The notes beneath the pieces are model-generated. The model had not been told where the DNA came from and did no database searches. It saw only the letters and a program-made list of their open reading frames with translations. Both the position numbers and the translations under genes were made by a program. Positions 3,538 through 63,268 of a stretch of 64,000 nucleotides of DNA are shown here, piece by piece. Position 1 is the first letter of the stretch, and each line of letters begins with the position of its first letter. The stretch lies in contig CM119270.1 in assembly GCA_051294375.1 (NCBI GenBank), positions 21,109,775-21,173,774 of the forward strand. Direction: 5' to 3'. This DNA is from Paraspadella gotoi. Taxonomy: Eukaryota > Animalia > Chaetognatha.

Positions 3538-3827
3538 GAGAGAGAATTAGAATTTGTTCTAAAATTAAAATAACTTTAAAATAAGATTAAAGATCGTCGC
3601 GAAATTTATATCAGGAAATTCTTTTGCAAGAAAAGTGAAATATAAGAAGAGAGAGAGAGAGAGTGAAAGAGAGGGAGAAAATAGTGAGAGAAAGAAGAAA
3701 GAAAGAAAGAAAGAAGAGAGAGAAGAAAGAAAGAAAGAAAGAAAGAAAAGAAGAAAGAAAGGAAAGAAAAGAAGAGAGAGAGTGACAGAGAGGGAGAAAT
3801 AGTGAGAGAAAAAAGAAAGAAAGAAAC

Positions 3828-3875
<48 letters not shown>

Positions 3876-4349
3876 AAGAGAGGAGAGTGAAATTAGAGAG
3901 AGAGAAAGACAGAGACAGAGAGAGAAAAAGAGAAACCGCCCCCAAAACTCCTCAAAGTCTCAGACCGCAAAAAAAAAAAAAAAAAAAAAAAAAAGAAACA
4001 AATTTTTTCGCCGCGAGATTCGAGTTGTCGGTCACGTGACAGTCACGTGTCGGTCACGGGGGCGTGGACGGTGCACGTGATTACGGAAAAAGAATGAAAA
4101 CGACAATAAACAACCAACGAACGAGACCACGATTTTTGAGGTCGTCCAAGAGGGGGAAAATGTGATGAGAATCTTGGAGAACATAAGATCATTTTGATTT
4201 CGCTGACTGGTCCTCGATCCCCGTCGTCGTCGTCGTCGTCTTCGTCCTGCATCATCGTCGTTCGTCATTTACAGTCGATTCAAGTCGTCGTCAGTCGTTT
4301 TCACATCATACCTCGTCTAACCACAGTACATCGTCATCGTCGTCGTCTT

Positions 4350-7300
4350 TTTAGTCATTCGTCGTTGTCGGTCCTTGTTGTCGGTGTCGTCGTCAGAGCA
4401 TCGTTGTCGTCGTCGTCTTCTTCTTCGTCATCGTCTTCGTGCGTCGTCCGTGGTCACGTCAGCGCCAATCTTTCAGCGTCGGTGCCCCTCGAGCAACGTC
4501 TCGATCTTTGACAGAAAACGAAGAGAAGAATAGACCGGACCAATTTTCTGGCCTCCGTCTCGTTTTTATAAACAGACAGACCAGACTGAAGGATCGTATT
4601 GTCGCGTTTCCATGACAATCGACAGCCAACTGCTAACCAAATCCGCTGGACTCATACAAAGTTGTGGGATGTTGTAATCTTGTGTAAATTTTTATATTCA
4701 GTAGGGATTCTTTCATGTTGTTGCAATCATGTTAATTGTACTGGTAATAAGTACTGCCAACTTGCGCAGAAAATACTAGTAAATAAAAAGTAAAAGTAAG
4801 TATACTCATTGAGTATTACTAAAGTAACATGAAAACGTGTACTCTTGGCTAAGGATATTTTTTTTCCCCGATAATGTTAAATTCTAGGCGTTTTAAGAAT
4901 GGTAAATTGTTTTTGACGACGGGTTTTTAAAATTATCACCCAATGTAATAATTCTAGAATAAAATTTAAAAAAGAAAACTTATCTTTTTACACAACAATT
5001 TTAACTCGAATCGCGTCGACTGTTCCGAGTTACTTCCGACTTAAAATTAATAAATTAAATAATAATTTTTTTTGCCCCGAGCGATATTCCTTTCCTAGAT
5101 TTTTTTCGAATTTTCATTATGCCTTGGGTTGAGGCTATTTTAATTCAACTCTCTCCAAAAATCTACAGTTGTCTTTTTAATAACTAAATTTAAATGCTAA
5201 AAATCTTATAAATCTTTTAAAAATTCAGAACGGTATTACGTAATTTAAAAAACTAAACTATAAAAAAAAAAAAAAAAAAAAATACGAGTTTTCTCTCAAA
5301 TTAATGAGACAGGTTTTTTTTTTTTCACTTTAACTCAGACGATGACATCGAAACTTGATTTCCAGATTCATCACAGAATGTCGGATCTGGCCCACGATCA
5401 TTAGCGATATTAATTATTTAATTTTATTAATTCAAGTTAATTAATTAATTAGGCAGTTAATTATTTATTTAAATAATTTTGAATTAAATGACAACGATGA
5501 TGGCGATGACGACAATAATGCCCTGATAACGGTTGACTTCAATTGATTGATTGATGATTGATTGTTAAATAATTAATGAATTGATAAATAAATTGATTTG
5601 CTTAATAATTAATTTCATAGATAAATAAATTGATTTGATTGAATAATAAATTGATTGATTAATTGACTGATTAATTAATTATTTGCGGTTATTAATTGAT
5701 TATAATATTATATTATTATAGATATTATAAATTTCATAATCCTTGCATTTATAGTTTAATATAAAAGAAAAAAAAGCATAATTCAATTAGCGAAGCAGTT
5801 TTCTTTTTTTTTCATTTAAAGTCATTTCGGCACTCAAGACGATTGCATCAAAACTTTATTTCCGACTTATCACAGCAACTCCCTACCCACCCACGGGACA
5901 CGACGGACAGACGGACAGACCAGACAGACGGCGGACAGACGGACGACAGACGGACAGGACATATTATTATTTTTGCATAATTTATCATAAATTTCCGATG
6001 TTCTGACTTGATATAAGTGAATGCCAACATGAATGAAGGGGCGGCACCGACCGACCGCAAATGGATTAAGTAGAGTGGGATCTACCCCACAATAAGCCAA
6101 AAAAAAAAAAAGTAAAACCAAAATGAAAACAAATAGTTTAACTACTTACTAGTCGACTCGTTTATTGATTTCCCAAAAGCCGAATAAAACATTGAAAATA
6201 AGAATTTTAAAAAAAATTAACAGAATAAATAAACATTTAGCAGAATGGGAGATAGTGCTGACCTCTGCGGATTCGATCGATACATCTTTCTTTGGGCGTC
6301 AATCTCTCAGTACATCTTACGTTTTCGTCAACTAGTGCAGATGTCAGTGCATCTTCCGCGCCGACAACTATCGAGCCCGTGCAGCGCCGCGATATTTTTC
6401 TTCTCACGTCAGGTACGCAAACTTCTCTCTGCCTAGCCAGACGATCCCTTGGCCGCTAAAACGATGGGAATTGGACTCCGGTGCCAAGTTCTTCTCCCTT
6501 CGCGGCGCTCGGCACCTTGAGCGCCGTCAAATTGTCGCTATGGCCGCCCGCAGCCGTCGCCGTTATGCCGCTGGGCGACTACGGCCACCTTCGACTGGGC
6601 GCGGGACTTCTTCGTCGCCGTTCCGCTGATCATTGCGCCTGCAGCGCCGTGCGCCCGTCCCGGCGTCGTTTGATTTCTGCTGGGCGGCGGCGATGGCTGC
6701 TGGCGGGGATCGTCTGATAACGAGGCGAGGTTTATCTTTTGTGAGGGAAAACGACGACGCCAATCCACGCCTACGTTTCGCTCTCTTCGGCGGATTCGTT
6801 ACGATGGCGTCGCCTTATCTTTTTTGGCTTCTTTCCCCGCGTTATATGGTTATTATAAATTATAATAGAAATAAAAATTTAACGTTTTATAAATTTTGGC
6901 TACATTATGGCAACAGCCGGGTTGCCATCTGTGATGCCATTGGGATTGGGGCATCTACTGTTGGCTTCTGGGGGCTTCCGACCCTCAGTGACGCCTCCAG
7001 TCACTGGCGCGGTTACGCCTAGGACGGTCTCCGCTTTAACAAAACGCAGAGGGAAGTCGTTAGGATGTGGGATGGAACAGCTACGCCTGGATTGGTGTGT
7101 TTCCCTTGAAGCCATTGGATTTGGCTGACGGATTGGTGGAACGTGAGGCGGTGTGAATATACCGCCCATCAGTCATTAACTATTAGGATGGACCGGAGAG
7201 ACAAGATCAATAAAGTGAACGTTAAGTTTATATGAATTTTTTCTTAAAAAAACAAAGTCTTCACTTTAACTGAAATCCATGAACTATAGAACTTTAGTCG

Positions 7301-10300: not shown

Positions 10301-12190
10301 TTTAAGAAATTTAACTAAAGCACCTGTTCAAACGAAAAATTTAGATATTAAAGAAAATTTAATAGACAAAAGCATTTTTAATATTACTCTTTACCCCATA
10401 TATTAATCTTTTTGATATTTAATTATAAATAGGAAAGGCTAAAAACTTAAGGATTTTTAATTTTTAAAGATAAGATTCAGGTCAGTTTGCAAAAAGGTTG
10501 TCTACCCAAAGTATATTTTTTTTGATAATTTTTGATCATAAGGAGGTAAAAATATGAAAAACTGTTAATGGATCAAATCATCAAATTCATCATATCTTGA
10601 TAATTTATTATCAAAGTTTTCTTAATTTTTTAACGCAGAGAAAACAGAATAATTTTTGAAAGTTGTAGTTATATTTTTCATTAAAACTTTTATGCTCTAT
10701 TAGAATCCATCACAAAAAATGTTAAGAATTGATTTAAAAAAAATGTTATCATTATATTGTATATTGTAATTTTGATGAAGCAATAATAAAAGCATTAAAA
10801 TCGAACTTTTTTTTAAAAGAAAAATTATTTTTTAGCCTGAAAAGTAGACTTGAATACTAAAGTTTTGAACGGGAGAGGCGGACCGAGGAAGGAGCAGGGC
10901 GGTTAACCTGGAGACCCTTTTTCTAAATATAAACATTGTGGCCCCCCTATTGAATTAAATTTCATCATAGTAGTTTCGAGATTGCAAGTGAAGAGACGGT
11001 AATAATTGTTATGGGCGTTAGTGACGGAACAAAAAAAAATACGCAATTTTTTTCAAAACTATCTATTCCTTAAATCTTCTCTCGCTAATTGAATTTAATT
11101 AATATGAAATTGGTACAAACCCAATATAAAAATTATCCATTCATTTAATAATAAGCTATCTTGCCCACTGACCTTTGGGACAGGCTTTGTGTGGGTTTAA
11201 GGCCTCCATCATCTTTACAAGATAATGACATAGCAGGTTCCCCTGGCAAGGTTCAATCAAGACTCTCTCACAGTCCTCGTTTAATTCACTGCCCAGAGTT
11301 ACCTGGCTTCCCTATCAATGAAGTGGTATAAATATTTCAAAGAATGTTTCAATTTGTATGAAAAGACCACTGTCCCATTAATATATCATGTGTTTTTCGT
11401 TTACAACAATTAGTTGAAAACGTAACATTCAAAAGGGCCATACAGCATTAACAGAATAAACGCATATGTAAGTTTACAATTCATACAAAAATAATAAATA
11501 TTTAAAATTAACAGAACGAAAAAAGAAAGAAAAAAATCCACAATAAGCTGCGTGTGCGTTCATCCGTGTCCGTTCAATAGTGTGGGGAAATTGGAAATGT
11601 GAACGAGTGAATCATGAATGATCATGATGAAGAATAGCAACTAATGATTTTCAGTGTTAAAAGTATGAAAAAATAGTAATAACCTTACGCTTAAGTAATT
11701 AGATTATATGAATATGAACATGTAACAATATCCTTGGTTAAATAACGCATAATAATGGGTGATAGGTATATTATTATATAATGAGCGAAATAACTGTACT
11801 AATAACGACTTCTGACTTATGAACGAATGAATTTATGATTTTTGAATTTTTTTGAAGAAACGAATTCGCAATTTCTTCATTTTTCTTCGCAACATCCAAA
11901 AATTTCTATTTTTGGTAATTCAAGCCTAATCCAATGAAGACGTAAAAACGGCCCTGGGGCAGTGAAGTGGTTAACCTCTTCATCTCTTCTCTCTCTTCGC
12001 CGCGTCAAAGCGACAAACCAAACAAAGGGCCGACGACGAGTTTGTTTTTACAATCCAAAAACTCACGTGACCTGTGTCGGTCGACTTTGCTCTCATTTTG
12101 GTCGTGGACCGAAACCCCGAACCGCGAAACCGAAACCCGCGGGGGAACATTCGCTCTTCCTCCTTTCCCCGCTCTCCCAATTTCTTTAAA
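4350..12190 (-). CDS. Putative multi-exon gene, product unidentified, frames broken by indels
   Basis: GC-rich coding-like islands at ~11960-12190, 9770-10070, 7790-8120, 6250-6845 and 4350-4640, some with minus-strand AG acceptors. The cleaner mirror copy at ~130-390 (+) reads LFSLRFLSKIETLLEAPTLKDGADDHDDDED...stop. No continuous ORF can be built. Confidence 0.3.
5290..6095 (+). mobile_element. DINE-1/Helentron-like non-autonomous element, copy 1
   Basis: Homologous to 61786-62600, with a GACG/GACA microsatellite (~5897-5960) and a short hairpin plus aataa at the 3' end. Confidence 0.6.
6906..7200 (-). mobile_element. Structured SINE-like repeat, family B copy 1 (twister-bearing)
   Basis: Reverse complement aligns with ~60960-61234 (cgccagtgac...gtcac, ggtc..aagccc, agatgcc...ggcatcaca, 3' gccata). 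Serial hairpins keep their stems while loops differ. Confidence 0.7.
6954..7050 (-). ncRNA. Twister-like ribozyme, type P5 (family B)
   Basis: Minus strand reads GCGG-A-GA-CCGU-CCUAGG-CG-U^AA-CCGC-GC-CAGUGAC-uggaggc-GUCACUG-A-GGG-UCGG-AA-GC-CCC. P2 GCGG/CCGC, 7-bp P3, P4 GGG/CCC, T1 CCG/CGG, T2 GC/GC, P5 UCUGC/GUAGA. Predicted cut 7015^7014. One extra A sits before the conserved GA. Confidence 0.75.
11106..11349 (-). mobile_element. ~240-bp dispersed repeat, family A (twister-bearing)
   Basis: Reverse complement of the copies at 16694-16945 and 61500-61735. Confidence 0.85.
11157..11224 (-). ncRNA. Twister-like ribozyme, type P5 (family A)
   Basis: UAUCUUGU-AAA-GAU-GA-UGGA-GGCC-U-U^AA-ACCC-AC-ACAAAG-CCUG-UCCCA-AA-GGU-CAG-UGG-GCAAGAUA. 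Same core as 16817-16879 with homopolymer-type insertions. Confidence 0.65.
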
Positions 12191-12330: not shown

Positions 12331-12513
12331 GTTGTTAATCGACCGGAACCGTTCCAAGTATAAGCAGTCCCTGAGCTTCGGATCAGGCTGTAGCAACCGA
12401 GTTCACAGAGCGGGTTAAAACGCCCCGTCCCTCTAAAATGCTAGGCGACGCACGGGCTAGAACCCCGGACCTTTGGTTGGGAGGCGAATGACTTGCCTCC
12501 GGCAACAATGGCC
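12331..12513 (-). mobile_element. tRNA-derived SINE, family C, with twister body
   Basis: tRNA-like head with B-box-like GGTTCTAGCCC (12464-12454), followed directly by a twister fold and a short aacaac tail. Confidence 0.65.
12363..12442 (-). ncRNA. Twister-like ribozyme, type P5 (family C)
   Basis: AGCAUUUU-AGAGG-GA-CGGG-GCGUUU-U^AA-CCC-GC-U-CUGUG...UACAG-CCUGA-UCCG-AA-GC-UCAGG-GACUGCU. T1 CGGG/UCCG, T2 GC/GC, 5-bp P4 CCUGA/UCAGG, P3 CUGUG/UACAG, P5 AGCA/UGCU. Predicted cut 12417^12416. Confidence 0.8.
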
Positions 12514-13077
12514 GCTGATGAACACGGATGTGGGATTTTTAGTCACCATAAAGGCAATACAAAAAAATTTGAAATAACTTGGTATATATCACGCTCGTGA
12601 TATCAGGTGGTTAAGATAAAGATGAAGATTTAGAAACTTGTATTTTATTATCAAAAATGTCCTAAGATCCTGTAAAAACTTTTGTTTTCAGTAGCAGGCG
12701 ATGCTACTTTTTGTATGGTCATACAAACGAACTAAAGATTGATCATGAGTTCTCGCCAACATTAGTCGACTCGACGATCGACAATAGAAATGACAAAAGA
12801 CAGACGAAATAACTAGTAAATAAATTTGTCCCACGTGTGAGGACGAACATTAAGTAATGTCAAAAAATAAGAGGTGAAAAGACAGAAAATAATAACAGAT
12901 AATATAACATGAATAATAAATAAATTAAATAATAAATATAAAAGCTTGTTTATTGTCTTTTCTTTGTCGTTGTGTAGTTAATATTTAAAAAAAGATTGGG
13001 GAAATTTTATATCGAAAACACAACGGTTTTTAATTCATAAGATGGTAAGTACAAAATTTGTGCAAAAAGGAGAGAGG

Positions 13078-15585: not shown

Positions 15586-16539
15586 TTTACCCACAACCTT
15601 CTCCACCGACGATTTCCATCCTCGCGCATTTTATTCAAAGGAATCGTTAAAACTTCCATTAACGGAAATCTACGACGACGACGGAGACGACGACGACGAC
15701 CACGACGACCACGACGATGACAATGATAACAGATGACAATGACGACGACGACGACGAAAACGATGTCGAAGATGAAGAAAAGGGCTACGATGATGAAAAA
15801 GACAACATCGTCGACGACCGAAAAAAAATGGCAACGAAGATGACAAAATTATGACAATGAGGACGACAACAATACGATAACTATTGGAGGCGGCAGAAAA
15901 GAAATAACGAACGACGACGACAACGACGATGACGACAACAACGACGACGATGTAAACACTTTGGTAAGGAATCTTGTTTCATCACTCACAAGGATGGTTT
16001 TCAACCCCACCTATCCATTCAGCTGAACTCATTGCCTCACAGGCCAAGAGAACATTTTGTTAAAATAATATCAAGACGCCTTTGTCTTCGCTTCCCTCTG
16101 TTCCAACCGTCCTGATTTACCGATTACCCCTTCCCACCCCGCACATCCGACCTTCCTTCTCTACGCCCTTCCCTATCCCTACCATCTTCCTCTCTTTCCC
16201 AGCTTATCCCTCGACTCGCTGGACAGATCCCGATGTCGCCAGGATCCTACAAGCCCTTTTCATTCTCTCGATCACGCGGAATTCACGCATTCGTCAATTT
16301 GTCGACTGATCGATTTCGCGGTAACCGATTTCGTGAGCGAAAGAACCGGCTACAACCTGGTCTGTATTAGAATCAGTGGAAGAAGTCACGTGATAAGAGA
16401 GAGAGGTACGAGTTACAGTAAATCGAGTTTGATGCTAAAAGTTCTAAAATGTTCGAGCGTTGACGTTAAAGGATCACGTCGTGAAGTGTGTACGGCTTAA
16501 AAAATTTATAAATTGTAATATTGTATTGATAGAGCCGGC

Positions 16540-16945
16540 TCCTCGGGAGTTTATTAAATCTTAGACAGGAAGAAGATCTCGATTGAAAGCTTGCAAAGAC
16601 TTGCTGTTTTGTGATCTTGTAAGATGGATGGATGACTTAACTTATTGTTTGAAGTCAAAAGAGAAGATAGATTATTTATTATCTTTTCACACATTTGAAA
16701 TATTCTTATAAATATTATGCTACTTCATTGTTAGAGAAGCCAGGTACTGGGGGAGTGAATAAACGAGACTGTGATAAAGTCTTGATTGAAAGCTTGCAGG
16801 GACCTGATTTTGTCATTATCTTGTAAGAGTGATGGAGGCCTTAAACCACCAAAGCCTGTCCAAAGTCAGGGGCAAGATAGCTTATTTATTAAATGAATGG
16901 GTAATTTTTCTATTAGATAAATTTTATATTGGTTGTACCGATTTT
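16540..16945 (+). mobile_element. Tandem pair of family A repeats (degenerate ~16540-16690, intact ~16694-16945)
   Basis: gattgaaagcttgca..gac...atcttgtaag...gatgga...cttaa...aagtca...aagatag occurs twice, about 200-205 nt apart. Confidence 0.75.
16817..16879 (+). ncRNA. Twister-like ribozyme, type P5 (family A, best copy)
   Basis: P5 UAUCUUGU(16817-24)/GCAAGAUA(16872-79); GA 16831-32; T1 UGGA(16833-36)/UCCA(16859-62); P1 palindrome GGCC; U16842^AA; T2 AC(16848-49)/GU(16865-66); P4 CCUG/CAGG; AA in L4. P2 (GAGU/ACC) is weak. Confidence 0.8.
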
Positions 16946-17654
16946 ATGCGCAGGTTGTCTGAAAGAGTCACGTGACTTAAAATTGATTGACACCTGGTTG
17001 CCAGTAATAAAAAGGCTGATGGGTAACGACTCCGGAAGGTAAGGGAATAAGGGGGAATGGGGTAAGGTATGTGGGTGCGTCGAAAAATCTCTCGATTCGG
17101 AGCGACGGAAAAACTTTGGATTTCTAAATAAATTTTTGTGGTCACGGAATATTTAATTAGTTTGATAAAGATGTTTATATTGTTAAATTGAACGTAAATA
17201 GGAGGGGAAAATTTCAAAGTCTGTTGGGCAAAGTTTCGGAGAAAGCTTATTGTAGTGACAGCAAGCTTATCATAGTGACGGGTAGCTTATCATTCTGACA
17301 GGAAGCTTATCATCGTGACAGCAAGCTTGGATTAGTTCCGTGAAGCAGCGAGCAAAAGCTTTAACGAATGGGACGCGATCTGCCAGATTTCTGTGGCAGA
17401 TTTTATTTTTTAGTTGCCAGATGTTTGTGAAATTCAAAGTGATAATTTGATTAATTCTGTCCATAGATTTTATTCGTTCTTTGTGAAGGAATTTTGTCAC
17501 AGAGATTGAGTGAAAGTTCACAGTATTTTTTGTGACGGCCTCACCGGAGAGCGGATGAGCCGTGAATGACAAATTGTGAATCGGTGAATAAACGACGCCG
17601 ACGACGCCTCGGGTTGAAAAGGTTTCTGGGCTTGTGGTGGACTGAAGGGTTTGG

Positions 17655-19557
17655 TTCACAGGTTCTTGGTGTCATCTTCATCATTCGAATTCACTAGTTC
17701 ATTGTCGTTTCTCTCAATGTTTACTTTCTATAAGAAGTTATTTCTTTTTCTTTGTCTTTTACAAGTTCTGGTCTTAGATCAATCTTCTCGCACTTTAACG
17801 ATTTCAGCCTTTGCGGTTATGAGAGATTCATTGTGCTCAACATTAGCCTTATTGTCCACCGCACCTTCCAATTCACTGTCTCCTACATTGTCCACAACGT
17901 TGGCGTCATTGTCCACCACATTTTCCGCTTTATTGTCTTCTACATTGTCCACAACGTTGGCGGCAATGTCCACCACTTCCTTAACGTTATTGTCCTCTAC
18001 ATCGTAAACAACATCGGGGTCATTGTCCACCACATTTCCATTCATTGTTCAAAACACCGACCACTACACTTCTTCTCCATCGCCCACAGTTTCGCCCACA
18101 GTTTCCTCCACTCATAACCACATCCGCGTCATAATCTCCAAATTCTCTTCCTCTTCCTCTCCCTATTCCCGTCACGCCAAAGTTCCATCTCGGCTTCGGC
18201 CAAAAGACGAATTATTTCCTCTCCTATTTTCTTGGAGTCTCCTTCAAGGTAGCAGGGTCGCTGGATGCAAGCGAGGCTTGCTTGGCTTCCTTAGCTGCCT
18301 TTGCTTGCTCACGTTGGAGCGATCTTCATTGGAGGCATCGTCGTTTTCATCTGCAACGCAGTCAACTCCTTCTCTTCATCCGTTTCCGAATTCTCCATGA
18401 TTGGTTCCAAAATCATGAAAGGCTCATTCTGCAATCGATTCTGTCGTTGATCTTCAATATGATTTTCATATAAGTCCTCCAGCCTGTTTCTCTCCTGCTG
18501 CTCCTGCTGTTGCTCATTTCCCTGCGGCTGCTGCTGTATTATTCCTCTCTTGAACAGTTTTGTTTTGTTTCCATCAAATCGAGTCTATTTAAAGATGCTG
18601 CAGATGATTTTCCAATTGATCCGCATTCACTTGAGTAATTTTCTCTCTTCGATCTTCGGACGATTCAAATGTGCCAGCTTCTTCCAAGTGCAATAGCTTG
18701 GCTTCATCCAAAGTCTCGATGGTTGAACACCGTTCATCTGCAACGGGATTTTTACCATCAACGGCTGCCATCCGCGATTGCCTACCATTCCCAACGCCTC
18801 TATCTGCAATCTCCTCCTCTCCACGGTCCCCATCGGCAATCGCCTTCACATCCACAACGTCCTCCATCTGCAATCGCCTCTCCTCTTCAAACGGACTCCA
18901 TCTGCAATCTCTCTCACATCCTCAACTCCTCCATATGCAATCGCCTCCAATCATCCTCTTCTCCTCCACCATCTCCCACAACCAACGACTTTCGATCTTC
19001 GATCAAATCCCTGACGACGGAGAGCGACTCAAGCCGCAGGACGCCGCAGCGCAGCGCCTCGAAGCTGCGTCGAATTTCGGGCGGAGAGGCGACGATTGAC
19101 TGTGGGACGGAGGGGTCGTTGGCGTTGGCGTTGTCGTTGGCGTTGTCGTCGTTGTTGGCGTTGGAGTTGGCGTTGTTTGAATCATCGTCGCGTCCTCCGT
19201 GTTCTAATTGACGCCAAAAGTTGATGGAAACGAAAGGCCGCCGCCCCGCCCGCCGCTGCTCTCTCCACCGCCCCCTCTCTCCCCTCCTTCCTCCCCTCTT
19301 CTTCTTCTTCCTCCTCCCTCTCGTCTCCACTTCGACTCTCTCTTCCTCGTCTTCGTCTGAATGAAAATCTCGTCGCCTCCGAGAAACCGAATCGAATCTC
19401 GGAGAGAAACTCTTCTATTTCTGGGGGAGAGATGGAGGAGGAGGAGGGAGAGGGAGAGAGAGAGGGGGAGAAGGGGGAGGAGGAGAGGTGGGGGTGGTGA
19501 GAGGGTGGCGGCGTGGTAGTCGTCGTCGTCGTCGTCGTAATTCTCCGGTTCTGACAT
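17655..19557 (-). pseudogene. Truncated, frameshifted inverted copy of the 33769-36117 ORF (probably an assembly duplicate)
   Basis: Same peptides in broken frames (MSEPENYDDD, FWRQLEHGG, ETLDEAKLLHLEE, VVDN repeats). It ends abruptly at a chimeric junction at 17654/17655. Confidence 0.85.
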
Positions 19558-22500
19558 CGCGCGTCGCTTGTCGAAGATCGACTTTCGAATTAAAGAAAGA
19601 AGGAAACAGATTTTTCCTTTTCTTTGATACGAAACATCGATTATTCGCTGTACGCGGTGTCCACTGTACAGCGAGGTGGATTAAAGCGGCGAGGGAATTT
19701 CGGTTGCGACGAGGAATGACTGCATTACAGTCGAGGTCGGTTTTAACGGCGCCGGGAATCGAAAGAGTTTTTTTGTATCCAAATCGATGTTGGAAAAAAA
19801 ATCTAATTTTGACGGACAAATTATTTTTAAAAGTTTGGGTTGTCCAGCTTTTAATCTGTTTAAAAAGAACAAATTAGTTAGTTAAAATTGTGATTAAAGC
19901 ACATTTATACAAGCTAACACTGTTAGTCCATTATGGTTTACTTTAGTTGATGGCGCAGGAAACTGTTCGTTGGTTTGACATGACACACTGATATTAAACA
20001 TAATTTTTAAACAATATTAAATGACAACTTGTTTCTTCAGAACTCGACAGATGTTCATTAATTGATTTGATTTCACGTAATTTTATTAGTCTGTATTTCT
20101 TTATCTTATTTATTTTTATTTACTTAATTCTTTATTCAAGGTTTTGTTTTGCTTTGGATGGTCAAATCTTGATCTTAACTACACGAATTTCGTTTATTCT
20201 TTCTTCAATAACCAAATGTTATTCTGATCGGATTCCGATTCTTTCTCGGCGCCGATATTTCTCTTTGCTCTGCGGCCGAGAGAATTAAAAGCCGGATTTT
20301 GATCGGCGGCCGAAAATCCTTTGACCGTGAATGGACCGGTGAATGGAGGTCACTCGAGCGAATGAATGGAATGAATGAATTCTCGGGACGGAGGAAGAAG
20401 GAATGCCGGTCAAAGAAAGATAACATCTCTGTGATTCGTCACAGTCACTCAAAGCGTCGTCGTCGTTGTTGTTGTAGTTTTTCACCTTCGAATCGCCTTC
20501 ACCTCTCACGGGCGAAAGAATTGTGAGGGGAAAAGTGAAAGGTGATCACTTAAGCTGTATTCATACTACTTTTATAATTTGTGACAAATGCTTCAGTCTG
20601 GTCATAACCGTCAATTTCTGTTTACTTGGGTCCGTTTATATGCTCTTCTTTTTCTGTACCGTTTCTTTTATCATCTCTTATTCGCTTTCTCTCTGTTTCG
20701 ATTTTGTTCCGTTCCGTTTCTGTTCTTTCGTTTCCGCTTCTGTTCATTTGTTTTCGCTTCTGTTCTTTTTAAATCCGCTTCTGTTCTGTTTGTTCTGCGC
20801 ATGAGCAGAAGCGCGCAATCCGCTTATTTAAGGGGACGCGTGATCGAAATTCGCCCGCGCAAAAATGAGGATAACGAATTTGCGAAAAAAAGTCACGAAC
20901 GCAAAGATGCAAATTAGTTAATGCGGATTAAAATTTTTTGCCCCTGATTTTTTTCTTAATCGAACCGTTTCTTCGTCCATTTGAAGCAAGAATGAAGAAA
21001 ATGAGAAAAATTAGAGATTAGTCTAGTTATTTTCTTTTTATAAGCAAATTTTTTTCTGGATGCTTTCAGTTTTAAAACTTCTATGAATTCAAAATTCAGA
21101 AAAGTTTTTTGTCTGTATATCAGTCAGGTTTTGTTAAATCATGAAAGAATCTAGAAAAATGCAAACTAGTAGATAAAGTAGATAAAATCTAATAATCTTG
21201 CATAATAAATACCTGAGAAATAAAAGTTAAGCTTAACTCAATTAAATATTTCACATTAATAAACATCCAAATACAAAAAAAGACAGAGCATTAAATCACG
21301 TAGTCAAAATGTCATCGATAATAAACATAAACGATTCTTTTTCTTTAGTTTTAAACTTCACAAAAACATAAGAAAATAAAGTCCCAGTGAGAGGCTGAGG
21401 CGTTTACCTCCTTCATTCATTCACTACTCCCTTAATTACTGCTAGTTAAAGGGTAGAGAAATATTCAAATTCGTCGGAGGTCAGACACCAGAAACTTTCA
21501 TTTTGCTCTCTTTATTTTTAGTCTCTCTCTCTCTTCTCTCTCTCTCTCTTCTCTCTTTCTCTTCTCTTCCCTTTTCACAGATATCAAACTGGGAGCAATA
21601 TTCTTCATTCTTTGTCCTGTCTTTCCAGTCGGCAGCAGCTGGATGCAAATTGATTGAAAGCATCTCAACCCACTCATGTCACCCTCCTTTAAAAATTCGC
21701 CCAAAAAATCTCGGATCGAATTTTAAAATTGAACTGAATCTTTAATCGAACGGTGAATCGTAAATTTGATGAACAAACCGTAAACCATGAAAAAAAAACG
21801 GTAAACGATGAATGCAAGAAAAATATATATATATATACAAACATAAACAATCTTAAACCGGATTCGGGTCCTTGTTAAAATCTCCCGCGGATGAGCGATG
21901 GCGACCGAAGCGGAAAAATACAAACAAAAAAAAGAAATTAAGAAAACGATTTATTATTAAGTTCGAGGAAAATTTTAATTTTTTAAAAATCGAAAAAAAA
22001 GTTACGGCTTTGTCGAAAAAAATAGAGTCGTTTTAAGTTTGTTGTTATTGTTTTTTATTTTGAAGGACAATAAATTGAAAAGAAAAGAGCAAAGAAAAGG
22101 AAAGGAAATTAGGACTAAACAAAGAAGAAGATAGAAAGGAAAGAATGGAAAAGAAAGAAAGAAAGAGAAAAAGAAAAGAAGAAAAGAAAGAAAGGAAGGA
22201 AGCGGATCGTCTCCAACCGCGCGATAAACGAAGACTCACATCGTCTTCTCTCTTTGACGTCGCGCGACATCTTTAATGACATCAGGAATGTTCAACCTCG
22301 ATCATGTCATCTCTCGTGACATCAGGAATGACATTACTAATGACATTCGAATCCCAAAATCGAAATGACATTGAGATGTGAATTGCCAATCGGTTATACG
22401 TGAGTCAGTGAATCCGTGAGACGTAAAACAACCTGATTCAACTCGAAGACGGGAAGGGAAAGTGAAATTCAGTTCGGACGAAACCGAGTTCCGAGACCTG

Positions 22501-24263
22501 GGCCGGGCTTGATCCGTTTTTAGGGGCTGGGGTTGGGCCCTGAGGGTCGGGCCTGAGCCATTAAGGGCTGAAGGGCAAGAGGAACATCGGGAGATCGAAC
22601 GGCTTCACTGCAGATTAATCAACGGGTATAATTAGGAGATATATTTGCTCAAAGAGATTTTTCTACAAATTGAATTTTTTCTTCTCTTCTTTTTTCGGTC
22701 GACAATATTAAATGTTTTTATTAATAATTGTAATGTTTTAAACGACGGATGGCAGCTTCATCTCACTCGTAATTTTTGGAGAAAGAAAACGCCCTGTGTT
22801 CTTTTTATGTCGTTGTTCACATTAGAAACAAAATTGTTATCTTTGTTATAATAATATTGTTATTCTTTCTTCTTACCTTTTTTTCCGCGCTTTTAAAAGG
22901 TGTTTTTCGATGAATTAAAATTGTCGTTTATACAAAAAAAACTTTTCATTGTTTAAAACGTCTTATTTTTTAACCATTCATCCCGTGCTCCGATTAATAA
23001 AACGGAACATTAAAGTAGTTTAGCGTTTTTCTCCCCCCATTTTTTTAGGCTTTAACTTAGGGATTACGGGTCTTTCTTTCTTTTTTTTTTTTGAAAAGGA
23101 TGTTTACATTGGCTTCTCTCTTTATGAACTGACAGCGAACTTCCTTATTAAAACTTTTCGATCTCTTTGGGAAAAAATTGAAAAAAGAAATGCAGGAGTT
23201 CGTTTTTAATTCTTTAGCGATGACGATGAAGATGACGATGACAAAAGATGACAAAGATGACGATGACGAAGATGAGAAGGTGACGACGAAGACGACGAGA
23301 CGACGACGATGACGACGACGATGACGACATGGTGACAGTGACACTGAAAAGTGATGACTACGAAAACTTTTTTTTAGAAAAATCACGACAATGACGATTT
23401 TGTTAACAACGAATATATATATATAATAATTTTAAACAGACAATAAAAATTGACGATTATGAAGACGACAATGATGACGAAGATGACAAATTTAAGAAAA
23501 AAACGATGAAATTATTATTTTTTTAGAAAAAAAAGAAAAAAAAGAGGACAAAGATGTCGAAGAAGATGATCAGGAAGAATAAGAAAGACGAAGTCGATAT
23601 AACGACACTGAATTCCGGAAGTTGACGACGACGACGACGACGATGACGATGACGACGACAATGACGACGAGATCGCTAGGAGGTGAAATTAGAGGAAGTC
23701 GTCGGTGATCAAGAGACGTGAATGAAGACGAACAACCGACGATGAGACGACGCGACGACGACGAACGCGACGACGACCACAAAGAGGCGGCGGCGCGGCG
23801 CGGCGTCGGCGGCGCGGCGGCGGCGGCGAAACGTCCTTCCAAAATTTGTCTCTTTTTTCCGGAAAAATTAAAAAAAAAAAGTATTTTTTTCTTCGACAAA
23901 AATGAATTTTGTTTTGTCGGGCAAAACTGAATTTTTTGTCGGGCAAACTGATTTTTTGTCGGCTAATCTCTCGACAGAGTTTTTAAGGCAGATCTCGAAA
24001 ATGATCGCGAGAATAAATCATAGTGACCGCCGATGACGACGACGACGACGACGACGACGACGATTACAATCGATGGAAGAGGAAAGACGGAGGACGACAA
24101 CGACCAACGACGACGATTGATGAGGAAGACGACGACGACGACGACGACGAGCACAATGTAAGTGGGAGGGAGAAAAGAAAATGGGCAGCGCATTCTTCCT
24201 TTGATGAGGCATGGGCATGGGAGTGAGAAGAGAGAGGTAGAGGGAAGAGAGAGAGAGAGAGAG

Positions 24264-24301
<38 letters not shown>

Positions 24302-25028
24302 GACAAGTGTAAATAGCAAACCAGGAGGCTTCCTTTTATTCCTTTATATTTTTTTCCTTCTTTTTCCCGAGTTTTCCCTTTTCCTCAGAAGAAAAGGTGT
24401 GTTTCCGATGTTCATGTTTTTTCGGTGTGGGGAATTGTCTTTTGGTTATTTGTGGTCGAATCAGCGTTTGTGGCCTCCTTTTGTTCTTGGTGTCACCGGT
24501 TTAAGAAAAACAGCCTTCTTTATCTTTCTTTTCTTTTAGGTTTGTCTTATCTTTTGTTTATCTTTGTCATTGTTAATGAGTGTGTCTTTGCATCGTTGTC
24601 TTTCTCTTTGGTCATTGTCTTTCATTTTGTCATCGACTTTGTCATTGTCTTAGTATTATTGTCAGTTTTCCGAATCGTTTTATTTGTTTCAAAAGTCATG
24701 AATGACGCCTTCGTCAGTCAGTCAAGAAAGTGTCATCTTAGTCGCGATGTCATAAAATGTCATTCTCATCGCTATCATCATATCATAAAATATCACCCGT
24801 GTTTCCGATCGTTAACGTGTCGTCGTGTCGTCGTCGTCTCGTCGTCGTCGCGTCGTTCGTCGTCGTCGTCTTCGTCGTCGCAGGTGAGTTTTCGTCCAAC
24901 TGGACTCTTTTTGTGACCCGAGGTGAGTCAGGCGGGTTTGGGTAAGTGAGATTTTCACTTTATTTCGACGTCTTTGTCATTGAATTCTCAGGTACAACAA
25001 TGTCATTATCGTGATCATCATCATTCAT

Positions 25029-25064
<36 letters not shown>

Positions 25065-25578
25065 GTCATCGTCGTCGTCGTCTCGTCATCGTCTTCATTA
25101 TCGTCGTCGTGGTCGACGTTTATTTTTATTTTTAAATTTTAATAGAACGCTCGAAATACTCTTGCCATTTTACTTGTTAGTTACTAACGATTTTCACTTG
25201 ATTGTTTTTCCTCATGTTTATTGTTCCAATCATGGTATATAGCTTTGTATTTAATCGAATTTTTTTTAAAATTTTTTTTCCGTGTCTACTGTTTCCTTTC
25301 GTGTTTTCTCTCTTTTTTAATTGCGAAAAACCCGTTTTTTTAAATTAGAAAAAATACAATATATAAAAATCGCGCAGACGAGGGATTGTATTATTTTAAT
25401 CCTGTTCTTAATAAAAAAATCAAATTAATGAGTTAGGACGTTCATCGATTAATGAGACCGATTTCTTTTAAACCTTCAATTAATATGGTTTTAATCTCTC
25501 ATCGACCCCATCATTCCACCTGCAATTTCCATTTCTCTCTCTCCTTCCTCTCTCTCTCTCTCTCTCTCGTCTCTCTCT

Positions 25579-26215: not shown

Positions 26216-26595
26216 TCTCTCTCCAAACCCTTCAGTCCACCACAAGCCCAGAAACCTTTCAACCCGAGGCGTCGTCGGCGTCGTTTTTCACCGATTCACA
26301 ATTTGTCATTCAGGCTCATCCGCTCTCCGGTGAGGCCGTCACAAAAATACTGTGAACTTTCACTCAATCTCTGTGACAAAAATTCCTTCACAAAGAACGA
26401 ATAAAATCTATGGACAGAATTAATCAAATTATCACTTTGAATTCACAAACATCTGGCAACTAAAAAATAAATCTGCCACAGAAATCGGGCAGATCGCGTC
26501 CCATTCGTTAAAGCTTTTGCTCGCTGCTTCACGGAACTAATCCAAGCTTGCTGTCACGATGATAAGCTTCTGTCAGAATGATAAGCTACCCGTCA

Positions 26596-26790
26596 CAGGG
26601 ATGTGGAGCCCGGAGGCCGGAGCCGGAGCTGGAGCCGCCGGGCCGGATTTTTTTTTTGCCGGAGCCGGAGCCGGAGCCGGAGCCAGAATTTTTATCTAGC
26701 CGAGCCGGAGCTGGAGCCGGAGCCGAAAAAAATTTTTGACCGGAAGGGAGCTGGAGCCGGAGCCGAATAAAATGCCCGGCTCCAGCTCCA
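26596..26790 (+). mobile_element. Left end of a hAT-like DNA transposon or MITE
   Basis: Starts CAGGGATGTGGAGCC followed by clustered GGAGCC subterminal repeats. It begins exactly where homology to the uninterrupted copy at 17275 stops. No right TIR is seen before the gap. Confidence 0.7.
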
Positions 26791-27404: not shown

Positions 27405-27450
27405 CAGGATATGTTTCGGCTCACAAGGGTTAGAGCCTTCATCAGCATTT
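27405..27450 (-). ncRNA. Degenerate minimal type-I hammerhead ribozyme
   Basis: CUGAUGA-A-GGCUC-uaacccuugu-GAGCC-GAAA-CAUAUC. Core and stem II are intact, stem III has a C-A mismatch and stem I pairs poorly. Confidence 0.5.
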
Positions 27451-28090: not shown

Positions 28091-28132
<42 letters not shown>

Positions 28133-28274: not shown

Positions 28275-28320
<46 letters not shown>

Positions 28321-28932: not shown

Positions 28933-28967
<35 letters not shown>

Positions 28968-58685: not shown

Positions 58686-61600
58686 ATGAAAGAATTATTT
58701 TTTGTGATTTTGAAGATCATTTTGAGCCTCACTGATGTCATCACTGATTTAAAAGTCACCACAAAATATCTTTATTCACAAATGAAGGAAATTGGAATCC
58801 TTTTAATGGTCATTTTAATTGGTCATTGTTTTATATCAGCAACATATGGAATATATACCATACATAAAAACCAGGAATATTTTTTTCGGATTTTAAAGGG
58901 AAAAATGTTCTAATTTTGTACAAGAACCATGATAATGGGGGCATTTAAGGATTTTAATATTTTTCTAGAACCACATCCTTATTGAGTTAAATTTTTAAGG
59001 TTATTTTCGGTTAGATTGTAATTCTAACTAATTTTTTTATAAATCAACAAAATCAAAAGAAAAAGTTTTAAAAGTACTTACAGCTCGAGAGCGGTTTTAG
59101 ATAGGAAATTATATCAGAAAACTAACATCTTTTATTTCTAGAACGATATCAAATAAGAACAACTTAATTTACTATTTTTCAATCACATCTTATTTTTTCG
59201 CGCCTTTTTCAATCACGATTTTTGCAATTTTTCAAAAAATAAAGATGAGCTAAATTTGTCCACTTTATGAAACCAGCTATAATGGCAGGAATGCGTTGTG
59301 ATAATTTAATCACGAGATACAAAATTAATAAGTGTTTTGCCTAATAATTAGAACATTTTCTTCAGAATTCTAAAGTGAAATGTCTTACAATATTATTCAA
59401 CCTTTTGGGTTTAGGATCATTTCCATTAATTATTGATCAGTATTTTGACAACCAAATATCAAAGAAAAAAAGAAATAAAATGCCAAATAAGTTGTTGAAA
59501 AAAACGTTTTTTATTACCAACATGGNNNNNNNNNNNNNNNNNNNNNNNNNATTTAATTCATAATTTTTTTGAAAGTTTTCCACACTGCACTGCGGAACGA
59601 TTGCAGGTTCAATTCTACTTGGACTGGAGCCTCAGACTCGCTTTGTATCGATGATACAACCCCAAAGTATAATTATATTACTTTTTAGTGGTCGAAAATC
59701 TACTCTATACAGAACGCAACCTGCTACAAATCTGTATGAGATGACAAATATCTCTTGCATGTGGCAGGGATGAGAATTCCTATGGTTCGCGACATGTTTT
59801 CTGTCTTGGCCAATTGATCATCAATATACTATGAATTTGTTTCAATTGCTTCTTCTACTTTTAGTTTGACTAGTTTGCCATAGATAATAGACACAGACTA
59901 TCTTTCAATCAAACAAATCTCAATTTATAAAAATTATTGATAACAGCTGGTTCATTTTTAGGTTTATTGCAGGGGCTGTTTGGAACTTTAATATCATTAT
60001 ATCTGGTATATATATACTCCCTAAACTTTTGCATATGGGTTCTTTTTTTGGCTCACTTTCACTGCTGAGGTTATTTACATTAGCTGAATTGATCTCTTTA
60101 GCAAAAAGAATTTTTTCATGCAATGCCAAAAATTTAAAAGTGATGGAAATATCTGAGTCATTTAACTTTATATTGCTCGCTTTTTCAATGTTATGGAGTA
60201 GCATTTTATTTTCATTCTTTTTTGCTATAAAAATCATGCACATTTTAGCAGGTAAATCGCATCAGGTTGTTCTGATCCTTTTGATCACAATTGAATGTAT
60301 ATTTCTAGTAATCCTTCAGTTAATCAGCTATTTGATGTATATTAAATAATGAATAAGAAATTGGTACAACCAATATAAAATTATCCATTCATTCAATAAA
60401 TAAAGCTACGTATATGGTGATCCTAAATTCGCCTCCCGTATAGCTTGGTGAAACTCCGCTCGTCCCGTTGGCTTTAGATAGCTTAGTACTTGTAAAAATG
60501 TTGTTTTTTTCCATGCCTCGAGGGTCGCCTGGTTTGATTAATCGGCCGTAGGTTGAACTGGATTTAACATGGAGCAAAAATTTTTAAATATCAAAAGTCA
60601 TAAATGTTTAATAAATGACGAATAAATCGTTAATAAATTTTTTTATTGTAGAGGTAAATAAATGGCAAAATTAGGTACTACAATAAAAACATGTAGAAAA
60701 TCCTTGGATTCCTTAAAAACAACAGTTTCCATCCAGCTGATCTTGTCCAGAGAACGAATTATGATCGAATAACAAGTTACGAGGTTTTTGGCCGAAAAAA
60801 AGCCACGGAGAAGCGACTAGAAGGTGACAAGACTGGTCTGAAAAAGTCAACTAAAGGACAAGGAAAAAATCACCAGACGCGGGTCACAAAATCTTTCAGA
60901 TCTCGTTCAACAACCGTGCGTTCCGGGTTCAATCCAACAGTCACTCTGAGCTTGGTCACCCAAGGTGCTGTCTTGAGGGCGGGCATGTGTGGCAATCCTA
61001 AATTCGCCTCCTGTATAGCTGTTGAAATTCACCTCGTCCCATTGGCTTGGACAGCTAAGTACTCGTTCACCAACTGTGAGTTCTGGGTTCCCCTCACGGT
61101 CATGCTGGTTAAATTAGATGGTGTCAGCATAAAAACGCCAGTGACATGGGTGTGGTCACAGCAGGTCCAAAGCCCAAAGCGCAATTGTCGGGAGATGCCT
61201 CACACCCGGGCATCACACATGTCTCCCGGCCATACTATCTTGCCTCTGATTTTAGACAGATCTTTGGTTTCTAAGGCCTCTATATGAATAATTTAAAATG
61301 AGTTTATTAATACATAATATACAGTTATATTACAGTATTATACACTGACTCAGCCTTCAAAGTCAGGGCAAGATAGCTTATTCTATAAATGAATGGATAA
61401 TTTTTTTTAATGGTTTTACCAATTTCATAAAATTAGCAGCTCCTTTATTTGATGCTGGACAGAGTTATAATATAGTATTCCCGAAGTCGCCTCCATTTTA
61501 AACATTCTTTGAAATATTATACCACTTCATTGATAGGAAGACCAGGTACTTCAAAGAAATGATATGAACGGAGATGTGAGAGAGTCTGATTGAAAGGCTT

Positions 61601-63268
61601 ACAGGGACCTGCTATGTATTAGTTGTAAGCAGTGATGGTCGCTTAAACCACCAAAGCCTGTCCAAAGTCAGTGTGCTAAAAATGAAGCTTATTTATTAAA
61701 TAAATGGAAAAATTTTTATATCGTATTCCAATTTCTTAGACAACCCAGTTTACAAAGATTTTAAACCATTCCTCACGCTTCCTTCAACAAGTTGAGCAAA
61801 AATGTCAGATCTGCCCTTGATTCATATCGGTAATTAATTAATAAATAATTAAATTATAAGTTAAATTAAATTAATTAATATATTATTAATTAGGCAATTA
61901 ATTAATTATCTTGATCTCAAATGTTTTAGTCTTTTTGTCACTAACCATGACAAAAGCAATGAACGACCATGAGAATAATGCAATATGACTGATTAATTAA
62001 TTATTTATTAATTCAATTGACTAATTGATTATTATTTTATTAATTACATCCTGCATTTACATTGATATAAAAGGAAAAGAAGCATAATCAATTTATGTGA
62101 AACAGGTTTTTTTGTTTTTCCATTTTAAACTCATTTCCACTAAGACGATTCATCGGAACTTGATTTCCAGCTTATCACACACTTTCCTACCCACCATTAC
62201 CCAAATCTCCAGGTCAATCGCCCCATCCACTCAGAGCAATAGGTGTCAAATAGTGAAATATATTTTTGTTTTTTTCCAATTAAAATCATTATCCACTTGG
62301 ACGGATTCCATCGAAACTTCATTATCAGCTCAATCACAACCTTCCCCTCGCAAACACAAAATTTTAATTCAAATTATTCCATCCAATCACAAGTAATTGG
62401 TGTTTTTTGCTAAAGGAGGGACGGATGAAGACAGACGACGGACAGACGGCACGATGGACGGACATCATTTTTTTTCAAACTTATCATAATTCGATGTTTC
62501 TGACATGATAAAGTGTGTGCCCGACAATATTGAGGGGCGGACGACGGACGACAAAGTGAATTATAGAGTCAGGGTCTGCTGATAGCAGATCGACTAATAA
62601 AAGGTACCGGGTTGGAGCTGGGGCTTTTTCGTTTAAGAATTAGAAAAAATTAAATTTACTGTTTAATCACCAAGGGACGACTAAAAAACCAGGTCGATAG
62701 GCAGGGGGAACCTTTGCATTGCCTTGCTTTAGACACTGAACAACCCTGATGAGAATTTTTTGCTGAAGCAATCAAGACCGTTATAATAGAAAAGCCTTAA
62801 AATTCCAGCCATGGGGTTTGCGCAAAATGATTGATTGTCGCCAACCAACGTTAGTTTTCTTATTGCGAAATAGAAAAAAGGGACGTAATTGCTTAATTAT
62901 TTTCACATCCAAGGAATCTATAATAAAACAATACAAATCAATAACTATAATTTTGATAATAAGCAGAATATATTATATCTTATAATAAAAAAAACAACCC
63001 AAACTCTCACATTGAATTATGTAAAACTTGGAAATACATGCTTAAATCCGACACATGACCTACAATTGCGATGGTTTTGATGGATATTCTGTTTGTCTGG
63101 CCTTTTTATTTCTACTTTATTGCAAGTTTAAAGAGACCCGTATTCAAAATGGTTTACTATTTTTTTGCTCAATTATTACGCAACTACTTTATATGCAACA
63201 TTTTAACTGGTACATTTATCATTGCAATTTGCGTATTTGTTACAAGAAAAAGAAAAGCACTTTGCTAA
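58686..63268 (+). CDS. Putative XK-related (Xkr-like) multi-pass membrane protein, fragmented
   Basis: Motifs in the expected order: LSLTDVITDLKVTTKYL (~58720), LFNLLGLG (~59395), FVSIASSTFSL (~59835), SLLRLFTLA (~60060), FKMVYYFF (~63145). The exon structure is unresolved because of a gap and indels. Confidence 0.5.
60409..61234 (+). mobile_element. Family B SINE-like insertion (partial copy ~60410-60490 plus longer copy ~60880-61234) nested in a family A repeat
   Basis: B-box GGTTCAATCC at 60926-60935; direct repeat 60420-60490 vs 60995-61063; flanked by CTA (60406-08 and 61235-37), which splits family A sequence aagcta|tcttgcc. Confidence 0.6.
61101..61183 (+). ncRNA. Twister-like ribozyme, type P5 (family B copy 2, partly degenerate)
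   Basis: AUUA-GA-UGGU-GUCAGCA-U^AA-AAAC-GC-CA-GUGAC...GUCAC-AGCA-GG-UCCA-AA-GC-CC. T1 UGG/CCA covaries with CCG/CGG of copy 1. P2 and P4 are weak. Confidence 0.6.
61500..61735 (+). mobile_element. Family A repeat (fragments also at ~60357-60408 and 61235-61280 minus, 61350-61428 plus, 56417-56437 plus)
   Basis: Aligns over its full length with 16694-16945. Confidence 0.85.
61620..61676 (+). ncRNA. Twister-like ribozyme (family A, partly degenerate)
   Basis: GCAGU-GA-UGGU-CGC-U-U^AA-ACC-AC-CAAAG-CCUG-UCCA-AA-GU-CAG. Confidence 0.55.
61786..62600 (+). mobile_element. DINE-1/Helentron-like non-autonomous element, copy 2
   Basis: Starts AACAAG, has internal duplicated units and a GACG/GACA microsatellite (~62420-62465), and ends in hairpin agtc..ggtctgc-tgata-gcagatc-gact plus aataa. 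Confidence 0.65.

What the first reader, a model, noticed from the sequence alone, without database searches (positions are those of the whole stretch)
12331..12513. tRNA-headed SINE whose body is essentially a twister ribozyme
On the minus strand a tRNA-like head (B-box-like GGTTCTAGCCC) is followed within about 12 nt by the best-paired twister in the window and a ~30-nt tail. Cleavage at 12417^12416 would separate the Pol III promoter from the 3' end, which seems counterproductive for a SINE. Inference: cleavage may be conditional, may release a small RNA, or may limit amplification.
Basis: partly seen in the sequence, partly recalled or inferred. Interest (0 to 1): 0.75.

Follow-up and report, generated by a model that had tools for sequence, protein, structure and literature searches.

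The report
tRNA-headed repeat with compact twister ribozyme
This is a worn copy of an abundant short repeat in a eukaryote that pairs a tRNA-like stretch with a compact, predicted self-cutting twister RNA whose shape is kept in a distant sister repeat, and it likely spreads through cut-and-rejoined RNA circles rather than as an ordinary SINE.

Summary
The anatomy is real. On the minus strand a tRNA-like head (12515-12444) is followed by a type-P5 permuted twister core with both pseudoknots, the catalytic G and A, and the U^A site at 12417^12416. Contigs of six DNA runs show an abundant dispersed family whose majority letters repair this copy's broken stems. A sister family in the window carries the same compact twister (almost no P1, three-base P2), hits Rfam Twister-P5 below threshold and differs by seven two-sided pair changes, so the fold looks selected. 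The 16.8-kb sister copy, not this one, is the best paired. A plain SINE fits poorly: copies carry a ~35-base hairpin leader upstream of the promoter, and leader and tail share an inverted repeat. Best guess (0.4): it works like Schistosoma Sm-alpha and retrozymes, where a two-copy template is cut to unit length, circularised and copied; single copies would be dead ends. Tandem masters, RNA, cleavage and the partner enzyme are not shown; a Helentron-like DNA carrier remains a serious rival. Four literature searches found no twister-bearing tRNA-headed repeat. The scan has no look-alike of this sequence, but noted related ribozyme-bearing repeats in other genomes.

The parts
12331..12550 (-). 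whole element, one diverged copy of family F1 (about 220 bases)
   Evidence: depth steps and loose-end majority letters at both ends in six runs; ends uncertain by a few bases
12530..12550 (-). 5' leader with a hairpin (6-pair stem, 6-base loop in the family majority; damaged here)
   Evidence: loose ends behind 12523 in 12-125 contigs per run; fuzzy match at 12548
12519..12529 (-). left arm of an inverted repeat that pairs with the tail (9 of 9 in the family majority, read by hand; degraded here)
   Evidence: loose ends; not significant on the window copy (p about 0.39)
12444..12515 (-). tRNA-like head: acceptor stem 12515-12509/12451-12445, T-like arm 12468-12452, B-box-like motif 12464-12454 with one non-consensus base, weak A box, unpaired anticodon stem
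   Evidence: ARAGORN at 85% threshold; majority letters at 12450-12452 (91-96% of depth) restore acceptor 7 of 7 and T stem 5 of 5 (by hand)
12436..12442 (-). twister P5, 5' strand (pairs with 12369-12363)
   Evidence: 6 of 7 pairs here; majority G at 12438 (95-99% of depth) gives 7 of 7
12425..12432 (-). P2 3' strand (12432-12430), general-base G 12429, A 12428, T1 strand CGG
   Evidence: matches the G-A-N-G-G block of Rfam Twister-P5 and phage examples; no substitution of 5% or more listed
12418..12424 (-). 6-7 base loop in place of helix P1
   Evidence: sequence; phage P5 twisters with a full P2 mostly have a 6-9 pair P1; variable in contigs
12416..12417 (-). predicted cleavage site U^A
   Evidence: position in the twister core; cleavage untested
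12410..12414 (-). three-base P2 strand and T2 strand GC
   Evidence: three-pair P2 also in phage twisters L152 and L220, both above the Rfam gathering score
12388..12408 (-). added P3 hairpin (5 pairs here, 8 in the family majority; absent in the sister family)
12363..12387 (-). P4 (5 pairs), loop L4 UCCGAAGC (12382-12375) and P5 3' strand
   Evidence: highest summed depth of the 3' half
12331..12362 (-). tail, holding the right arm of the inverted repeat (12356-12347), then A/T-rich sequence
   Evidence: loose ends before 12359; the window differs from a contig of the same locus by 7 gaps in 77 bases (X1 record 1)
16682..16945 (+). sister family F2, best copy; compact type-P5 twister at 16818-16878, predicted cut 16842^16843
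   Evidence: Rfam Twister-P5 25.8 bits, E 0.0014, gathering 37.6; pairs
11090..11366 (-). sister family F2, second full copy (L4 disturbed by extra bases)
   Evidence: 84% to the 16.7-kb copy; alignment
61490..61740 (+). sister family F2, third copy
   Evidence: 80% identity and descriptor hit

Best explanation
This is one worn copy of an abundant, dispersed, non-coding repeat made of a hairpin leader, a tRNA-like head, a compact type-P5 twister fold and a short tail, and it likely spreads like Sm-alpha and retrozymes: a presumed two-copy template would be transcribed from the tRNA-type promoter, cut once per unit by the predicted ribozyme, rejoined into a circle and copied back into DNA by a borrowed reverse transcriptase. 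Shown: the anatomy, the high copy number, the repair of stems in the family majority, the fold shared with the sister family. Inferred: Pol III transcription, cleavage, the two-copy master, circularisation (the two cut ends would be held together by P5, P2 and T1, and carry the 5'-OH and cyclic phosphate that RtcB joins), and copying that starts at the tail. On this view the internal cut is not counterproductive: it makes the unit-length RNA that carries the leader and promoter along, and single copies such as this one are dead ends.
For: Seven two-sided pair changes in 14 aligned pairs of P5, P2, T1 and T2 between the family majority and the sister copy, none broken (six plus one broken pair for the window copy as it stands); shared oddities (6-7 base P1 loop, three-base P2 ending in C.A, same junction length). 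Rfam Twister-P5 hit on the sister; a model built only from seven phage twisters ranks the two sister copies and this copy first to third of 13 matches in the window, weakly (E 0.06-1). Features whose damage lowers cleavage (pseudoknots, general base, loop-side pair of P4) are intact, those that are imperfect (P1, P2) are tolerated in a test of about 2600 natural candidates (PMC11662667, passages). The leader upstream of the head is shared by copies. No copies were seen to start at the cut: loose-end majorities read through it and 0 of 3 clear 5'-truncated sister fragments begin there. Precedent for promoter-then-ribozyme units that need tandem copies (PMC6765202) and for RtcB circularisation of such monomers (PMC7229834, passages).
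Against: No head-to-tail joint among the 15 of 23 and 15 of 17 joints shown; all are deletions or empty-site joints, though contigs inside a high-copy repeat are too short for this test to be sensitive. Loose ends with median lengths of 174-255 bases in X4 run into unrelated flanks, so most copies are single. The one adjacent pair in the window (sister unit 16495-16681 directly before 16682) lacks about 45 bases of tail and may be a nested insertion. Fixed ends on both sides need an extra assumption for a circular template. Among the few contigs that span the middle, several break T2, one at depth 360 of 475 in X6 and one at 215 of 735 in X5, and many single-locus deletions remove the cut site. 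This copy is predicted to misfold. The sister head is not called a tRNA even at 65% threshold and its homology to this head is not significant (2894 of 5000 shuffles score as well). The pair comparison rests on two sequences and registers chosen by eye. The ends also resemble Helentron-type DNA elements.
Confidence: 0.4

Rival explanations
1. A non-autonomous rolling-circle DNA element (HINE, Helentron-dependent) read on the + strand, with subterminal inverted repeats and a 3' hairpin, carrying the tRNA-like stretch and twister as cargo.
For: In the family majority a perfect 9-base inverted repeat has one arm about 14 bases from one end and the other directly beside a terminal hairpin; flanks are A/T-rich; no TSD was seen. 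It explains the leader and the fixed ends. HINE features as described in PMC4067079 (passages).
Against: Arms are shorter (9 vs 12-15) and further from the 5' end (about 14 vs 2-4) than described; DNA-level movement does not explain why pseudoknot pairs and catalytic bases are kept across two families; inverted repeats in the sister copies are only borderline (p 0.04, 0.05, 0.89); no Helentron partner seen.
Confidence: 0.22
2. An ordinary LINE-mobilised SINE whose twister is slow or switchable, so that uncut transcripts are copied and cut ones give small RNAs.
For: tRNA-like head, A-rich sequence after the tail in the loose ends, 5'-truncated sister fragments with the 3' end kept, a hairpin that competes with the active fold, copies with broken T2 that seem to have multiplied.
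Against: The ~35-base (sister: ~60-base) leader lies upstream of where Pol III would start (established knowledge, recalled); no TSD and no LINE-matching tail shown; an element gains little from keeping a self-destroying fold.
Confidence: 0.2
3. Solo LTRs of a miniature LTR retrotransposon that combines a tRNA-type promoter inside its LTR (as Helenus) with an LTR ribozyme (as plant LTR retrozymes); the two LTRs supply the two cuts.
For: Majority ends read TG...CA with roughly symmetric A/T flanks (weak, by eye); the leader would be U3; Helenus LTRs hold tRNA-like sequence and occur as solo LTRs (PMC10886601, first part and passages).
Against: No primer-binding site, polypurine tract, paired LTRs or 4-5 base TSD seen; flank majorities differ between the two sides at the central base.
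Confidence: 0.12
4. The twister resemblance is chance or a long-dead relic with no part in propagation.
For: No Rfam twister hit for this copy; P1 missing; predicted misfolding.
Against: 3 real loci vs 0.01 per shuffled window and seven two-sided changes; Rfam hit on the sister.
Confidence: 0.06

Closest known systems
Sm-alpha / Sj-alpha SINE-like elements of Schistosoma (PMC6765202 and PMC2770079, passages read; original 1998 paper not held)
   Same: tRNA-derived Pol III promoter followed by a self-cleaving ribozyme in a short, very abundant repeat; cut lies downstream of the promoter
   Different: ribozyme is a type-P5 twister, not a hammerhead; tandem copies not seen here; hairpin leader and leader-tail inverted repeat
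Non-LTR retrozymes of animals (PMC7229834, passages read)
   Same: 150-450 base non-coding unit with one ribozyme; proposed circle made by RtcB
   Different: those are tandem arrays with type I hammerheads; here mostly single copies with fixed ends and a tRNA-like head; RNA not observed
Type-P5 twister ribozyme (Rfam RF02684)
   Same: order of strands, G-A-T1 block, U^A-A, 8-base L4, both pseudoknots
   Different: P1 reduced to a 6-7 base loop, P2 two pairs plus C.A, long closed P5, added P3; below Rfam threshold
T-variant twisters of the Perere-3 LINE (PMC8501958, passages read)
   Same: twister with imperfect P1 inside a eukaryotic retroelement
   Different: there the cut defines the 5' end of an autonomous LINE; here it is internal, downstream of a tRNA-like head, in a non-coding element
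HINE / DINE-1 non-autonomous Helentrons (PMC4067079, passages read)
   Same: subterminal inverted repeat beside a terminal hairpin, T-rich flanks, no TSD seen
   Different: shorter repeat further from the end; conserved RNA-level fold inside; no partner found
Helenus TRIMs (PMC10886601, first part and passages read)
   Same: tRNA-like sequence set inside a short repeat with sequence upstream of it
   Different: no paired LTRs, PBS, PPT or TSD shown; no ribozyme reported in Helenus (the word occurs once, in a reference)

Membership tests
Twister ribozyme, type P5 | general-base G, U^A-A site, 8-base L4 and pseudoknots T1 (3 pairs) and T2 (2 pairs) | tested here: met
   two-sided changes in T1 and T2 against the sister family
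Twister ribozyme, type P5 | P2 of four pairs and closed P1 hairpin as in the Rfam consensus | tested here: not met
   P2 two pairs plus C.A, P1 a 6-7 base loop; three-pair P2 occurs in L152, L220; P1 and P2 defects tolerated in PMC11662667
Twister ribozyme, type P5 | Rfam RF02684 gathering score 37.6 | tested here: not met
   no match for this copy; sister 25.8 bits
Twister ribozyme, type P5 | site-specific self-cleavage | not testable with these tools
   needs an in vitro assay
tRNA-derived SINE | dispersed, high copy number, non-coding, 100-600 bases | tested here: met
tRNA-derived SINE | tRNA-derived head with A and B boxes | tested here: inconclusive
   tRNA-like shape (majority letters) but sub-threshold; B box one mismatch, A box weak
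tRNA-derived SINE | head at the 5' end of the element | tested here: not met
   shared leader of about 35 bases upstream
tRNA-derived SINE | target-site duplications | tested here: inconclusive
   empty-site contigs join 12263 to 12555/12560 but also lack about 30 flank bases; window has indel errors
tRNA-derived SINE | tail shared with a partner LINE | not testable with these tools
   no genome held
Sm-alpha-like element / non-LTR retrozyme | head-to-tail tandem copies | tested here: inconclusive
   none among joints shown, insensitive test; one imperfect adjacent pair in the sister family
Sm-alpha-like element / non-LTR retrozyme | hammerhead ribozyme | tested here: not met
   no hammerhead match; the fold is a twister
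Sm-alpha-like element / non-LTR retrozyme | unit-length linear and circular RNA | not testable with these tools
   only DNA contigs could be laid
HINE (non-autonomous Helentron) | 12-15 base subterminal inverted repeats, 2-4 bases from the 5' end | tested here: not met
   9 bases, about 14 from the end (vs PMC4067079)
HINE (non-autonomous Helentron) | 3' palindrome and T-rich target without TSD | tested here: inconclusive
   terminal hairpin present; flank majorities A/T-rich; single sites not readable
TRIM solo LTR (Helenus type) | paired LTRs with PBS and PPT, 4-5 base TSD | tested here: inconclusive
   not seen in loose ends; a collapsed internal part could be hidden

The most novel reading that the evidence does not exclude
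A lineage of tRNA-promoter mobile elements, with at least two diverged families in this genome, uses a stripped-down type-P5 twister as a self-aligning cut-and-rejoin module: the ribozyme's own helices hold the two ends of the unit RNA together for circularisation, which lets the element carry its upstream leader and promoter through reverse transcription. It would be the first twister-based retrozyme and a natural counterpart of engineered twister-RtcB circular RNA systems.
Probability: 0.3. Interest if true: 0.8.

Novelty: new variant of a known kind. Interest (0 to 1): 0.6.

Why it matters
Twister ribozymes are widespread but have one documented genomic role, at the 5' end of Perere-3. A second role, inside a tRNA-headed repeat and in a permutation that cuts the element in the middle, would show that the Sm-alpha/retrozyme design arose again with another catalyst. 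The compact variant (no P1 stem, short P2) is missed by Rfam, so similar families may be overlooked. It also gives a short, easily tested natural substrate for how single copies with fixed ends relate to circular intermediates.

Tried and rejected
No genome held. No RNA holder listed. Other F1 copies in the window: none. A type-P1 reading that uses the downstream GAACGG was rejected: P2 and P1 do not pair. Whole-element folding is no better than shuffles (z 0.12). The majority-letter version was not folded; its pairs were read by hand from the tables. Summed contig depth is not a copy number, so only 'abundant' is claimed; the six runs are at most four samples of two studies and may include the window's own source. 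Host placement failed: cofilin relatives (87-92%) are unnamed environmental sequences. Pfam on 12 of 125 long frames found only cofilin; the rest were not scanned for a partner enzyme. The original twister and Sm-alpha papers were not held. Supplements were not read; Repbase-type consensus sets that might already hold this family could not be searched.

Full report
Setting. The window is eukaryotic, microsatellite-rich, with long inverted duplications and indel noise; no genome is held. A cofilin gene has 87-92% relatives among unnamed environmental proteins, so the host could not be named.

Observation. On the minus strand the B-box-like motif lies at 12464-12454, the first ribozyme helix starts 11 bases later, the U^A step is at 12417^12416 and a 32-base tail follows. 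Rfam finds no tRNA or twister here (only a mascRNA match at E 3.1 on the head). ARAGORN calls a tRNA-Gly(CCC) pseudogene at 12443-12513 only at 85% threshold, 1 of 7 calls in the window. By pairing, the body is a type-P5 permuted twister: P5 6 of 7, P2 two pairs plus C.A, T1 3 of 3, T2 2 of 2, P4 5 of 5, P3 5 pairs, and a 6-7 base loop where P1 should be. A fixed-motif descriptor matched 0 of 60 shuffled windows with P4 of 4 or more pairs and 2 of 60 with 3; a general one matched 3 real loci against 1 match in 100 shuffles. Both were written after seeing the sequence.

It is an abundant family. Six DNA runs of one organism hold it. 941, 2786, 1481 and 550 contigs laid in X1-X4, 1228 and 82 in X5 and X6, with summed depths thousands of times that of the contig of this very locus; the tool warns this is no copy number. 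Majority letters repair this copy: 12450-12452 (91-96% of depth) give a 7 of 7 acceptor stem and 5 of 5 T stem; 12438 (95-99%) gives P5 7 of 7; loose-end majorities give an 8-pair P3 (pairs read by hand). Part of the damage may be assembly error: a contig of the same locus differs by 7 gaps in 77 bases. As it stands the copy prefers a competing hairpin, with P5, P3 and P2 probabilities of 0.0, so it is not the best-paired twister and may not cut.

The element is longer than reported. Copies share about 35 more bases upstream of the head, with a hairpin, and in the majority a perfect 9-base inverted repeat links leader and tail (by rough count chance about 0.002; not significant on the window copy). 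Beyond both ends the majority is A/T-rich and roughly symmetric, which could be a target preference, short terminal repeats or an A-rich tail. Two contigs join 12263 to 12555/12560 without the element, showing an insertion into another repeat, but they also lack about 30 flank bases, so no TSD can be read.

A sister family supplies the strongest evidence. Three full copies (16682-16945, 11090-11366, 61490-61740), one more unit and four fragments lie in the window. They carry the same compact twister without P3. The 16.8-kb copy is the only Rfam match in its stretch (Twister-P5, 25.8 bits, E 0.0014, gathering 37.6). Against the F1 majority it shows two-sided changes in 4 of 7 P5 pairs, 1 of 2 P2 pairs, 1 of 3 T1 pairs and 1 of 2 T2 pairs, and keeps the C.A and the junction length. 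The 3' parts align better than all but 24 of 5000 shuffles, the 5' parts do not (2894 of 5000), and the sister head is not called a tRNA at 65% threshold. A model from seven phage twisters ranks sister, this copy, sister as its top three of 13 weak matches. Phage twisters with the same L4 and a three-pair P2 exist and pass Rfam's threshold (L152, L220). In PMC11662667 (abstract, passages, sections 33 and 35 read) defects in P1 and P2 were tolerated, while pseudoknot and general-base defects were not; that pattern favours activity of the majority type (my estimate 0.6) more than of this copy (0.3). That study's constructs are not this permutation with a 6-base P1 loop, so the transfer is an inference.

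Mechanism. A selfish repeat keeps a fold if the fold helps it copy (inference). An internal cut helps only if the template has two ribozymes. That is the logic given for Sm-alpha: Pol III promoter then hammerhead, tandem copies needed, single copies unable to propagate (PMC6765202, passage; tRNA derivation in PMC2770079, passages), and for animal retrozymes, whose monomers RtcB circularises (PMC7229834, passages). A cut-to-cut unit would carry tail, leader and promoter in one RNA, which explains the leader. Genomic copies run leader to tail and not cut to cut (loose ends read through the site; 0 of 3 clear truncated sister fragments start there), which requires rejoining at the cut. Against it: no head-to-tail joint among those shown (15 of 23, 15 of 17; insensitive test), mostly single copies, T2-breaking contigs at above single-locus depth, many internal deletions, and ends that recall HINE elements (PMC4067079, passages) although the repeat is shorter and further in. 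I give 0.4 to this reading, 0.22 to a Helentron-type carrier, 0.2 to a SINE with a slow ribozyme, 0.12 to solo LTRs and 0.06 to chance or relic.

Novelty. Searches for twister with SINE (8 papers, 5 listed), retrozyme/twister/tRNA/Pol III, twister with Penelope-like and non-autonomous and twister with short interspersed since 2021 gave no twister-bearing tRNA-headed repeat, judged from listings and the passages named; subscription papers and repeat databases were not covered. The one documented role is at the 5' end of Perere-3 (PMC8501958, passages). The scan's notes hold no look-alike sequence but related kinds in other genomes. Verdict: a real, new variant of a known design; it works like Sm-alpha by anatomy but fails membership (other ribozyme, tandem copies unproven), and is not a textbook SINE. 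Interest 0.6.

Noticed in passing
window 6960-7052 (-): A third, unrelated type-P5 twister-like motif with P2 4 of 4, P3 7 pairs, L4 UCGGAAGC paired to a compensated T1 strand, and one extra A before the general base; single in the window, no tRNA-like head seen.
   Followed up: partly
window 16495-16945 (+): Two sister-family units lie back to back; the first lacks about 45 bases of tail and the second has a 16-base duplication in its tail. Tandem dimer or nested insertion.
   Followed up: partly
window 12557-12660: The upstream flank is itself a moderately repeated sequence; contigs without the element join across it.
   Followed up: no
window 17300-25100 vs 26400-35600, and 770-1060 vs 3630-3930: Long inverted duplications at 87-100% with indel noise, as expected from amplification chimeras or mis-assembly.
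   Followed up: no
window 54509-55151 (-): Intron-split cofilin/ADF gene, 87-92% identical to unnamed environmental proteins.
   Followed up: partly
L152:98-154, L220:98-149: Phage type-P5 twisters with a three-pair P2 that pass the Rfam threshold.
   Followed up: yes
window 60417-60470 and 60995-61047: A diverged direct repeat of about 55 bases, seen by eye, around a 196-codon frame with no Pfam match.
   Followed up: no
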